A stretch of 53,744 bases of DNA, from IMG/VR virus record IMGVR_UViG_3300026549_000042, positions 1 through 53,744 of that record. One strand, written 5' to 3'. The notes beneath the pieces are model-generated. The model worked only from the letters and a program-made list of their open reading frames with translations, did no database searches and was not told where the DNA came from. Shown here piece by piece: positions 51,979 through 52,544 of the stretch; position 1 is the stretch's first letter, and every line of letters begins with the position of its first letter. Origin of the DNA: a virus. Lineage: Duplodnaviria; Heunggongvirae; Uroviricota; Caudoviricetes. The position numbers and the translations under genes are program-made.

Positions 51979-52201
51979 ATCAAGTATTATTCATAATGAA
52001 AAGGAATATCAAATATTTCTTAAGTCTTATGATATTAAAAATGAGTATCGGAAGTATGGTTCAATTTCAAATATGATAGATCCACCTACACATTATCCTT
52101 GTATATTAGTTTGGTATGAAGATGATAGTTATGGATTAACTTATTGGGGCGAATTTGTATATTTAGATGATTTTAATGAAGAAAATTATGGAAAAGAATA
52201 A
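51962..52201 (+). CDS. Hypothetical protein
   Basis: About 79 aa from ATG 51962; overlaps both neighbours as in an operon. Confidence 0.6.
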   Translation: MAYLDKSSIIHNEKEYQIFLKSYDIKNEYRKYGSISNMIDPPTHYPCILVWYEDDSYGLTYWGEFVYLDDFNEENYGKE

Positions 52202-52544
52202 ACTTTATATTTTAATAGATAAGAATTTAGATCCTATCTATGGCGCAGTTCAGGGCGGTCATGCTGTTGCTGAATGGTTATTACAACATTGGTAGACTAA
52301 ACATAATAATGATTGGAATGAAGATTTTCCAGAATGGGATTGGAAGAATGAATACTTAATATATCTTTCTGTAGATATTGACAAGTGGAAAGAACAATTG
52401 TGGAGATTTGATCCAAGTAAATATAAATGGGTATGGTTTGATGAACCTGACTTAGGAAATAAGACAACAGCAATTGCTATATATGCAAATGATTTTCCAA
52501 GTTCAATTATTCAAAAATTAAATAGAGAGCAGTTACTTAAGTAA
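52188..52544 (+). CDS. PTH2-like peptidyl-tRNA hydrolase with one in-frame TAG (codon 36)
   Basis: MEKNKLYILIDKNLDPIYGAVQGGHAVAEWLLQHW[TAG 52293-52295]TKHNND...YLIYL...WFDEPDLGNKTTAIAIY...LLK. PTH2-type motifs lie on both sides of the TAG in one frame. Absent from the ORF track. Confidence 0.75.

What the first reader, a model, noticed from the sequence alone, without database searches (positions are those of the whole stretch)
52188..52544. Suppressor-gated peptidyl-tRNA hydrolase: candidate amber-dependent translational switch
Seen: one in-frame TAG (codon 36, in a variable-looking loop, followed by A) separates the N-terminal QGGHAVAEW motif from the C-terminal EPDLGNKTTAIA motif. The frame stays open for 82 more codons to a TAA inside a terminator, so the downstream part looks under selection. 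The CUA tRNA lies about 1.3 kb upstream on the same strand. Established: PTH2-type enzymes recycle peptidyl-tRNA after drop-off. Inference: the rescue enzyme is made only once the suppressor is active, which is when stalling and drop-off rise. That would be a conditional read-through circuit in an otherwise standard-code genome.
Basis: partly seen in the sequence, partly recalled or inferred. Interest (0 to 1): 0.85.

Follow-up and report, generated by a model that had tools for sequence, protein, structure and literature searches.

The report
Amber-gated PTH2-like gene beside suppressor tRNA
A giant gut or rumen phage that otherwise uses the normal genetic code keeps one deliberate UAG stop inside a small tRNA-hydrolase-like gene, 1.3 kb from its own UAG-reading tRNA, so the full protein can probably be made only while that tRNA overrides the stop; this gives an "orphan" phage suppressor tRNA a concrete target.

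Summary
ORF 52188-52544 has one in-frame TAG at codon 36, and a genuine CUA tRNA lies 1.3 kb upstream on the same strand.

- **Not an error.** A stop sits at this codon in 17 independent phage contigs (16 TAG, one TAA) forming one clade, down to 48% protein identity. Synonymous sites around it have turned over, and both halves are under purifying selection.
- **Suppressor linkage.** All 16 such loci with enough flank carry the orthologous suppressor.
- **Standard code otherwise.** This 142-kb record and a 98%-complete 376-kb relative are otherwise standard-code. Tail sheath, major head protein and protease have no TAG. This is the only gene where homology spans a TAG.
- **Protein.** It has a clear PTH2 fold (Z 10-11) but is a divergent paralog. 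It lacks the Lys-rich loop, and the relative also has a canonical PTH2 with no TAG.
- **Family-wide pattern.** 61 of 78 phage loci pair this gene with a CUA tRNA, and TAG has entered the gene at several independent places.

Suppressor-dependent expression is well supported by comparison. The inserted residue, the enzyme activity and the "switch" logic are untested. This scan has noted the same phenomenon on other DNA; I found no published description.

The parts
52188..52544 (+). PTH2-fold gene (118 codons) that needs read-through of one UAG to give the full protein
   Evidence: phrog_3668 matches residues 3-103 across the TAG. AlphaFold model pLDDT 93.5. Z 10-10.9 to PTH2 structures. pN/pS is 0.16 before and 0.40 after the TAG.
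52293..52295 (+). Conserved in-frame TAG (codon 36), followed by A
   Evidence: Stop at the same alignment column in 17 loci: 16 TAG and one TAA. CAA or CAG never occurs there, while 38 of 49 invariant degenerate columns show synonymous turnover. On the tree this is one gain and two losses. The +4 base is A in 13, G in 2 and T in 1.
50824..50895 (+). Amber suppressor tRNA (anticodon CUA), last called member of the tRNA array
   Evidence: ARAGORN. Rfam tRNA 35.5 bits. Orthologs lie 1.2-2 kb upstream of every testable TAG-bearing homolog. 16 of 20 cloverleaf pairs are kept through compensatory changes, and CUA plus A37 is invariant.
45469..50895 (+). Array of 16 ARAGORN-called tRNA genes that ends with the suppressor
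51145..51978 (+). 277-aa ORF of unknown function between the suppressor and the gated gene; not conserved in this position in relatives
   Evidence: No family match. The genes between tRNA and gene differ in L009 and L011.
51953..52201 (+). 82-aa ORF of unknown function whose end overlaps the start of the gated gene by 14 nt
   Evidence: No family match.
52524..52553 (+). Intrinsic-terminator-like hairpin plus T-run that contains the gene's TAA stop

Best explanation
The gene encodes a divergent, phage-specific member of the PTH2 (peptidyl-tRNA hydrolase 2) fold superfamily. Its mRNA carries a UAG at codon 36 that host release factor would read as stop, giving a useless 35-residue fragment. 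The phage's own tRNA(CUA), encoded 1.3 kb upstream on the same strand with no terminator-like site in between, decodes this UAG and allows synthesis of the 118-residue protein. Selection keeps the stop codon in place, so the output of this protein is tied to the amount of active suppressor tRNA in the infected cell, as a translational gate or dosage coupling. The protein is most likely an esterase acting on the 3' end of charged or peptidyl-tRNA and works as a functional partner of the suppressor. What is shown by comparison: conservation of the stop, linkage to the tRNA, the fold, purifying selection on both halves, and an otherwise standard code. What is inferred: actual read-through, the inserted residue (probably Gln by analogy with code-15 phages), the enzyme's substrate, and the purpose of the coupling.
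For: (1) The stop sits at the same column in 17 independent contigs forming one clade (SH-aLRT 99), down to 48% identity, and is never a sense codon except in two derived losses. (2) Synonymous turnover occurs at 38 of 49 invariant degenerate columns in the same sequences, including CAA/CAG at Gln22, so the stop is kept by selection. (3) pN/pS is 0.16 before and 0.40 after the TAG, and there is no Met after it. (4) All 16 TAG or TAA loci with enough upstream flank carry the orthologous CUA tRNA. The tRNA covaries in 16 of 20 pairs. (5) Family-wide, 61 of 78 loci have a CUA tRNA within 3 kb, always on the same strand, and in 53 of them it lies just downstream of the gene. (6) The same family has gained a required TAG at other places: L072/L073, L091, L049/L067 and L092. 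(7) The genome is otherwise standard-code. Coding density is 0.906 against 0.910 here and 0.884 against 0.895 in the 98%-complete relative. Structural genes have no TAG. This is the only gene in which homology spans a TAG. (8) PTH2 fold: Z 10-10.9 with the next unrelated chain at 2.7; 50 of 123 relatives match Pfam PTH2; the family profile matches solved PTH2 enzymes at about 6e-5. (9) L024, which lost the TAG, has no suppressor match in its 89-kb fragment.
Against: L020 has TAA at this codon but only a CUA tRNA was found nearby, and CUA should not read TAA. Most family members (59 of 78) have no TAG yet still sit next to a suppressor, so gating is optional. TAG still ends 14 of 144 ORFs here, so strong suppression should carry a cost. 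L029/L030 lost the TAG but kept the tRNA. The tRNA body is unlike the phage's tRNA-Gln, with G1-C72 against U1-A72, and resembles no isoacceptor, so charging is unknown. The protein lacks the Lys-rich loop of canonical PTH2, and G004 has an ungated canonical PTH2, so Pth activity is uncertain.
Confidence: 0.62

Rival explanations
1. Autoregulatory homeostat. The PTH2-like enzyme acts on the suppressor tRNA itself, for example by hydrolysing its aminoacyl or peptidyl form. The UAG in its own mRNA would then make a feedback loop that sets the level of UAG read-through, analogous to RF2 sensing its own in-frame UGA.
For: The gene and the tRNA are tightly linked on the same strand in 61 of 78 loci whether or not a TAG is present. 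TAG has been recruited repeatedly into this one gene family. A canonical, ungated PTH2 coexists in G004, which suggests a specialised role for this paralog. TAG still ends ordinary genes, so limiting suppression would be useful.
Against: There is no evidence of substrate. Most family members carry no TAG. The sign of the feedback is unknown. The analogy with prfB comes from my own recall of that system.
Confidence: 0.15
2. Ordinary code-15 usage or a relic. In a lineage related to TAG-recoded Lak phages, TAG is simply a tolerated sense codon (Gln) at a loop position and has no regulatory meaning.
For: The nearest named relatives are Lak megaphages, which use code 15 (PMC8346664). Borges et al. 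describe suppressor gain followed by drift of in-frame stops. The position is variable in relatives that lack the TAG, which have N, K, E or Y there.
Against: It is the only gene with a homology-supported TAG in 142 kb and in 376 kb. The TAG never changes to CAA or CAG across a clade with saturated synonymous sites. TAG has been gained independently elsewhere in the same family. Lak homologs themselves have no TAG.
Confidence: 0.12
3. Read-through or expression independent of the phage tRNA: host near-cognate decoding, a leaky stop, or the two halves functioning separately.
For: L020 carries TAA at the site with an intact downstream frame. A purine after the stop could favour leakiness; that context effect is from my own recall.
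Against: All 16 testable loci carry the suppressor. There is no start codon after the TAG. The model is a single compact domain with the N-terminal strand and helix in its core.
Confidence: 0.05
4. Pseudogene, private nonsense mutation or sequencing error.
For: None beyond the stop codon itself.
Against: The same codon is a stop in 17 independent contigs from different samples, and both halves are under purifying selection.
Confidence: 0.02

Closest known systems
Stop-codon-recoded phages with phage-encoded suppressor tRNAs (code 15, TAG to Gln: Lak and crAss-like phages; Borges et al. bioRxiv 10.1101/2021.08.26.457843; Crisci et al. PMC8346664; Peters et al. PMC9523058)
   Same: A phage-encoded tRNA(CUA), a low-GC genome, an in-frame TAG that needs the phage tRNA, and the proposed use of the stop as a post-transcriptional gate. 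Borges et al. also note suppressor tRNAs in standard-code relatives.
   Different: Here coding density does not change with TAG as sense, and structural genes are free of TAG. A single gene carries the conserved TAG. That gene is a translation-related enzyme next to the tRNA, not a late or lysis gene. Surveys that require a density gain of 10% or more (PMC13037316) would file this phage as standard-code.
Archaeal and eukaryotic peptidyl-tRNA hydrolase 2 (PTH2, Pfam PF01981; e.g. MJ0051 2zv3, S. solfataricus Pth2 1xty, human Bit1/PTRH2 1q7s)
   Same: The same alpha/beta fold: Z 10-10.9, rmsd about 3 A over 98-105 residues. A shared Q-G-G-H-A helix motif. The acidic residue plus T-A-I-A strand align with D-A-G...T-V-x-A-I-G.
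   Different: No Pfam match for this protein. The Lys-rich G-K-G-K loop is replaced by P-I-Y-G, and D-A-G by E-P-D. This clade has an extra beta-hairpin at residues 35-50. A canonical PTH2 coexists in the relative G004. Activity is unknown.
prfB (RF2) autoregulation through an in-frame UGA (recalled from general knowledge, not tested here)
   Same: A conserved in-frame stop inside a gene for a translation factor or enzyme, so that expression reports on how that stop codon is being decoded.
   Different: prfB uses a +1 frameshift and senses release-factor level. Here the frame is unchanged and decoding would be by a dedicated suppressor tRNA. Whether the product feeds back on decoding is unknown.
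Synthetic suppressor-tRNA feed-forward gates (PMC7969014; PMC13276491)
   Same: A target gene with an amber codon is expressed only when a suppressor tRNA is co-expressed.
   Different: Those gates are engineered. This one is natural, conserved and phage-borne.

Membership tests
PTH2 (Pfam PF01981) | Match to the family HMM above its curated cut-off | tested here: not met
   P0001 has no PF01981 match at E <= 1. The six-frame search of G000 gives no match. However, 50 of 123 family relatives match at E <= 0.01, best 7e-8.
PTH2 (Pfam PF01981) | PTH2 alpha/beta fold | tested here: met
   Model pLDDT 93.5. The top 14 Foldseek PDB chains are 13 PTH2-family chains plus the PTH2-like Atu0240 (2gax), probability 0.95-1.00. 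Swiss-Prot AFDB rows are all PTH2 or PTRHD1. VIA Z is 10-10.9 against 2.7 for the next unrelated chain.
PTH2 (Pfam PF01981) | Conserved Q-x-x-H-A motif on helix 1 | tested here: met
   QGGHA aligns with QGGHA of MJ0051 and QSCHA of 24bt. H25 is invariant and Q22 nearly invariant in the family.
PTH2 (Pfam PF01981) | Acidic residue of the D-A-G motif | tested here: inconclusive
   The HMM alignment places the invariant E86 of E-P-D at the Asp column, a Glu for an Asp. No residue-level structural superposition was available.
PTH2 (Pfam PF01981) | Lys of the G-K-G-K loop before helix 1 (its catalytic importance is recalled from S. solfataricus Pth2 work, not checked here) | tested here: not met
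   The loop reads D-P-I-Y-G here, against R-K-G-K in the canonical PTH2 of G004 and K-G-K or T-G-K-K in solved enzymes.
PTH2 (Pfam PF01981) | Hydrolysis of peptidyl-tRNA | not testable with these tools
   Needs a biochemical assay.
Code-15 (TAG-recoded) phage | Marked gain in coding density, and many genes with in-frame TAG, when TAG is read as sense | tested here: not met
   Density is 0.906 against 0.910 in G000 and 0.884 against 0.895 in G004. One homology-supported TAG gene. Structural genes are free of TAG. TAG ends 14 of 144 and 28 of 580 ORFs.
Code-15 (TAG-recoded) phage | Phage-encoded tRNA with a CUA anticodon | tested here: met
Code-15 (TAG-recoded) phage | TAG decoded as glutamine | tested here: inconclusive
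   The 'Q' in database homologs comes from code-15 gene calls. The two sense replacements are Asn and Tyr. The tRNA body is unlike tRNA-Gln and unlike any other isoacceptor. No GlnRS-type gene was found.
Functional suppressor tRNA | Cloverleaf kept by covariation, with an invariant anticodon | tested here: met
   16 of 20 pairs show compensatory changes across 20 sequences, and CUA plus A37 is invariant.
Functional suppressor tRNA | Expression and aminoacylation | not testable with these tools
Autoregulatory in-frame stop (prfB-like) | The product influences decoding of its own in-frame stop | not testable with these tools
   Only conservation of the stop and linkage to the tRNA could be shown.

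The most novel reading that the evidence does not exclude
The suppressor tRNA and the PTH2-like gene form a self-contained, widely spread phage module. The enzyme would be the dedicated partner of the tRNA(CUA), and the UAG inside its gene would make its synthesis a read-out of suppressor activity, setting or limiting UAG read-through in infected cells. This would explain why many standard-code jumbo phages carry 'orphan' amber suppressors, and it may represent the seed stage, or a controlled alternative, of full TAG recoding.
Probability: 0.2. Interest if true: 0.85.

Novelty: new variant of a known kind. Interest (0 to 1): 0.68.

Why it matters
Suppressor tRNAs are common in large phages that are not recoded, and their targets are generally unknown. 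One genome announcement says outright that no target could be identified (PMC9022506). Here the suppressor has a single, conserved, comparatively validated client, and that client is itself a tRNA-end enzyme encoded beside it.

If read-through is confirmed, this is a natural minimal amber-suppression gate. It would be:
- a testable model for how phages begin, or avoid, whole-genome stop-codon reassignment;
- a ready-made orthogonal tRNA and gene pair from Bacteroidota-type phages.

It is also a practical warning. Standard gene callers split or drop this gene, while code-15 calls in protein databases silently write Q at the TAG.

Tried and rejected
- **Gln from the alignment column.** I first read column 36 as a conserved Gln (93 of 121 homologs). 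I withdrew this when one search showed that the database proteins are code-15 translations of TAG.
- **Amino-acid identity from the tRNA.** The best similarity to any phage isoacceptor is 62-67%, which is not informative.
- **Narrow-profile searches.** Profile A3 against PDB sequences gave nothing, and Pfam on the protein itself gave nothing. Only the broad family profile and the fold bridged to PTH2.
- **Whole-genome recoding.** Rejected.
- **Other TAG read-through candidates.** For 64354-66381(-), 132150-132440, 76905-77588 and six G004 frames, no homology or domain match spans the TAG. The many X-to-Leu matches are antisense shadows.
- **Promoter scan.** Not above shuffles, 28 against 22.9, so no promoter is claimed.
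- **Possible theta or HDV-like ribozyme 3' of the tRNA.** No Rfam match, MFE z-score -0.41, and not conserved in most clade members. Left as a side note.
- **Pyrrolysine.** Not pursued. ARAGORN's 'tRNA-Pyl' label only reflects the CUA anticodon; no search for pyl genes was run.
- **Jug phages.** Whether the clade equals the published 'Jug' phages (PMC12880540) could not be established.

Full report
**1. The observation.** Translating window 52188-52544(+) gives a 118-codon frame with one TAG at codon 36 (52293-52295, next base A). Eighty-two open codons follow, ending in a TAA. The TAA lies inside a 13-pair hairpin followed by a T-run at 52524-52553. That hairpin is the only terminator-like site on the + strand between the tRNAs and the gene's end. 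ARAGORN finds 16 tRNAs at 45469-50895, the last with anticodon CUA at 50824-50895(+), 1293 nt upstream of the gene. Rfam's tRNA model scores it 35.5 bits against a threshold of 29. No Met codon follows the TAG, so the C-terminal two thirds cannot be started at an ATG of their own.

**2. Where the window comes from.** The window is the first 53.7 kb of a 142,335-bp virus record with 27% GC, which CheckV rates about 50% complete. It encodes a tail sheath (16508-19573), a major head protein (20850-22676), a head maturation protease (22791-24488), a helicase and sigma-like factors. All of these are open under the standard code. The closest named relatives of the gene are in Lak megaphages of Prevotella, at 41-44% identity.

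**3. Is the genome recoded?** No.
- Coding density is 0.906 under table 11 and 0.910 with TAG read as sense. TAG ends 14 of 144 ORFs.
- I fetched a 376,291-bp relative rated 98% complete (G004). It has the same gene, the same TAG and the same tRNA. Its density is 0.884 against 0.895, and TAG ends 28 of 580 ORFs.
- I compared all TAG-read-through frames of the two genomes by BLASTP. The only frame in which genuine protein similarity spans a TAG is this gene, with X aligned to X at E 1e-57. All other hits are antisense or off-frame shadows of real genes, recognisable by the X-to-Leu pattern of CTA/TAG complements.
- For the remaining G004 candidates, no PHROG match spans the TAG.

So "an otherwise standard-code genome" holds, and the suppressor has one conserved in-frame client.

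**4. Not an error or a private mutation.** L002 is an independent 95-kb contig whose protein is 86% identical, and it has TAG at the same codon. So do the P0004-type contigs (90% identity, six samples) and the 113-aa "HW-TAG-KNKEGYP" type.

One caveat matters here. The protein database holds code-15 gene calls (one search reports "with_TAG=Q"). The apparently conserved Gln at column 36 is therefore TAG in the DNA, and I withdrew my early inference of Gln from that column.

A profile scan of viral contigs returned 78 loci. Reading their DNA shows:
- Twelve of them carry TAG at column 36. Eight have a Trp before it and share 64-100% identity with the window's protein; four have a Gly before it and share 48-58%.
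- With the window itself and three contigs found by identity look-up (L009, L010, L011), that makes 16 TAG-bearing contigs. One more locus (L020) has TAA at the same column, giving 17 with a stop.
- No sequence with the W/G-stop motif has CAA or CAG there.
- In the 13-member core clade, 38 of 49 invariant degenerate-residue columns show synonymous turnover. This includes CAA/CAG at Gln22 and several AAA/AAG and GAA/GAG flips. The stop column stays a stop throughout.
- A maximum-likelihood tree puts all 17 stop-bearing sequences in one clade (SH-aLRT 99, long stem) together with only three sense-codon members. That implies one gain and two losses, to AAT in L024 and TAT in L029/L030.
- pN/pS is 0.16 before the TAG and 0.40 after it, so both parts are translated and constrained.
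- The base after the stop is A in 13, G in 2 and T in 1.

**5. The suppressor tRNA.** Orthologs of the window's tRNA lie 1.2-2 kb upstream of the gene in all 16 stop-bearing loci that have enough flank. Seven of these were missed by ARAGORN and recovered by BLAST or Rfam. L018 is cut off by its contig end.

Across 20 suppressors, 16 of 20 cloverleaf pairs are kept through compensatory double changes, and CUA plus A37 is invariant.

The acceptor stem is G1-C72, unlike the U1-A72 of the phage's own tRNA-Gln. No isoacceptor in either genome is more than 67% identical. No GlnRS-type synthetase gene is present. The inserted residue is therefore unknown. Gln is the prior only by analogy with Lak and crAss-like phages.

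L024, which lost the TAG, shows no suppressor match anywhere in its 89-kb fragment. L029/L030 lost the TAG but kept the tRNA.

**6. A wider gene-tRNA pairing.**
- In 61 of the 78 loci a CUA tRNA lies within 3 kb, always on the gene's strand. In 53 of them it starts 290-1914 nt after the gene's start, often directly behind the roughly 290-nt gene.
- Lak homologs have no TAG but sit about 0.7 kb downstream of a UUA-anticodon tRNA.
- The same family has acquired a required TAG at other places. L072/L073 and L091 have ATG, a few codons, then TAG, with no ATG after it. L049/L067 have the domain fused behind an upstream ORF by a TAG. L092 has a TAG one residue later in the same loop.

Gating is thus an optional feature that has evolved repeatedly on top of a constant gene-tRNA partnership. 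Fifty-nine of the 78 loci have no required TAG.

**7. What the protein is.**
- PHROG phrog_3668 ("hydrolase") matches residues 3-103 across the TAG, at E 1.3e-9.
- Pfam PTH2 does not match the protein itself.
- An AlphaFold model built from 37 relatives has pLDDT 93.5.
- The top 14 Foldseek PDB chains are 13 PTH2-family chains plus the PTH2-like Atu0240. All 30 Swiss-Prot AFDB rows are PTH2 or PTRHD1.
- VIA-align gives Z 10-10.9, rmsd about 3 A over 98-105 residues, to Bit1, S. solfataricus Pth2, MJ0051, AF2095, TA0108 and PH1539. The next unrelated chain scores Z 2.7.
- An exhaustive profile search finds 731 clusters of this family. Of 123 members, 50 individually match Pfam PTH2, best E 7e-8. 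The broad profile matches solved PTH2 enzymes at about 6e-5. QGGHA aligns with QGGHA, and the invariant Glu86 sits at the Asp column of D-A-G.
- The Lys-rich G-K-G-K loop is replaced by P-I-Y-G.
- G004 also encodes a canonical PTH2 (113 bits, with KGKIAAQVAHAS and DAGNTEF motifs). It has no TAG and no tRNA nearby. G004 also encodes a 205-aa GGQ-domain protein.

The gated gene is therefore a specialised, divergent paralog of the PTH2 superfamily, not the phage's general rescue enzyme. In the model, residue 36 opens a beta-hairpin (35-50) that shorter relatives lack.

**8. Mechanism.** The best-supported reading is as follows. The full-length protein is made only when the phage's tRNA(CUA) decodes UAG36. 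Selection keeps the stop, so the enzyme's output follows suppressor activity.

Comparison shows conservation of the stop, linkage to the tRNA, the fold, purifying selection and a standard code elsewhere. Four things remain inferred: read-through itself, the inserted residue, the substrate, and the purpose of the coupling.

This is possible, but it is weakened by the ungated canonical PTH2 in G004 and by the altered catalytic loop. An alternative with some appeal is a feedback loop in which the enzyme acts on the suppressor's own charged or peptidyl form.

Points against a strong switch:
- TAG still ends ordinary genes.
- Most family members lack a TAG.
- L020 carries TAA at the site.

**9. Comparison with what is known.** The general idea is published: phage suppressor tRNAs plus in-frame stops acting as a post-transcriptional gate, with suppressor gain in standard-code relatives preceding recoding (Borges et al.; Lak; MS validation, PMC9523058). 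That preprint's text contains neither "peptidyl" nor "hydrolase". The Lak, Jug and jumbo-phage surveys I read do not mention the pairing. Surveys that call recoding by a density gain of 10% or more would miss it.

This scan's own earlier notes report amber-gated PTH2-like genes beside suppressor tRNAs on many other genomes. One of those concerns a close relative of this gene. I treated them as leads only. My own sample independently reproduces the start-proximal TAG variants they describe.

**10. Verdict.** I class this as a new variant of a known kind: single-gene, conserved amber gating of a tRNA-end enzyme linked to its suppressor, in a phage that otherwise uses the standard code.

Noticed in passing
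L020:3001-3333 (IMGVR_UViG_3300037455_000644): This close relative has TAA instead of TAG at the gated codon, with the downstream frame fully conserved. Only a CUA-anticodon tRNA was found nearby. It could be a recent knockout, an assembly error, or decoding by something else.
   Followed up: partly
window 50896-50943: About 45 nt directly 3' of the suppressor tRNA are conserved with L003. They can be drawn with nested P1 (GUUUUG/CAAAAC), P2 (GGUUA/UAACC) and P4 (CUCC/GGAG) pairings, like a minimal HDV-like 'theta' ribozyme (bioRxiv 10.1101/2023.06.13.544163). There is no Rfam match, the MFE is not significant, and the stretch is not conserved in most clade members.
   Followed up: partly
window 50746-50813 and 47054-47126: Two extra Rfam tRNA matches (33 and 38.6 bits) that ARAGORN did not call. 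One lies immediately upstream of the suppressor.
   Followed up: no
G004:18181-18582 (L119) and G004:308588-309217 (L118): The 98%-complete relative carries a canonical PTH2 (113 bits, no TAG, no tRNA nearby). It also carries a 205-aa GGQ/RF-1-domain protein, the size of PrfH or ArfB-like rescue factors.
   Followed up: partly
L007:2344-2416 and L008:2248-2320 (Lak-B4, Lak-A1): In Lak megaphages the PTH2-like homolog has no TAG. It lies about 0.7 kb downstream of a tRNA with a UUA anticodon (a TAA/TAG reader) rather than CUA.
   Followed up: no
L004:3786-4219 and L004:1982-2342: A phage contig with a partial GOLLD RNA match (73.7 bits, below the gathering score of 150) next to a tmRNA gene, inside the tRNA region.
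   Followed up: no
L002:237-435 and L002:2468-2672: Two group I intron-like matches (47 and 43.6 bits, just under the gathering score of 50) within the tRNA array of the closest relative.
   Followed up: no
Protein P0137 (2212 aa): A very long protein with 16 separate matches to this small PTH2-like family. It may be a tandem-repeat fusion or a gene-calling artefact.
   Followed up: no
G000:64354-66381(-) (beyond the window): A 281-aa ORF ending in TAG lies in frame with the next 335-codon ORF, so suppression would fuse them. No homology supports a fused protein.
   Followed up: partly
Protein collection: The collection behind search for homologous proteins includes code-15 gene calls. A 'Q' in its sequences can therefore be a TAG in the DNA, which makes amino-acid inference from such columns circular.
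   Followed up: yes
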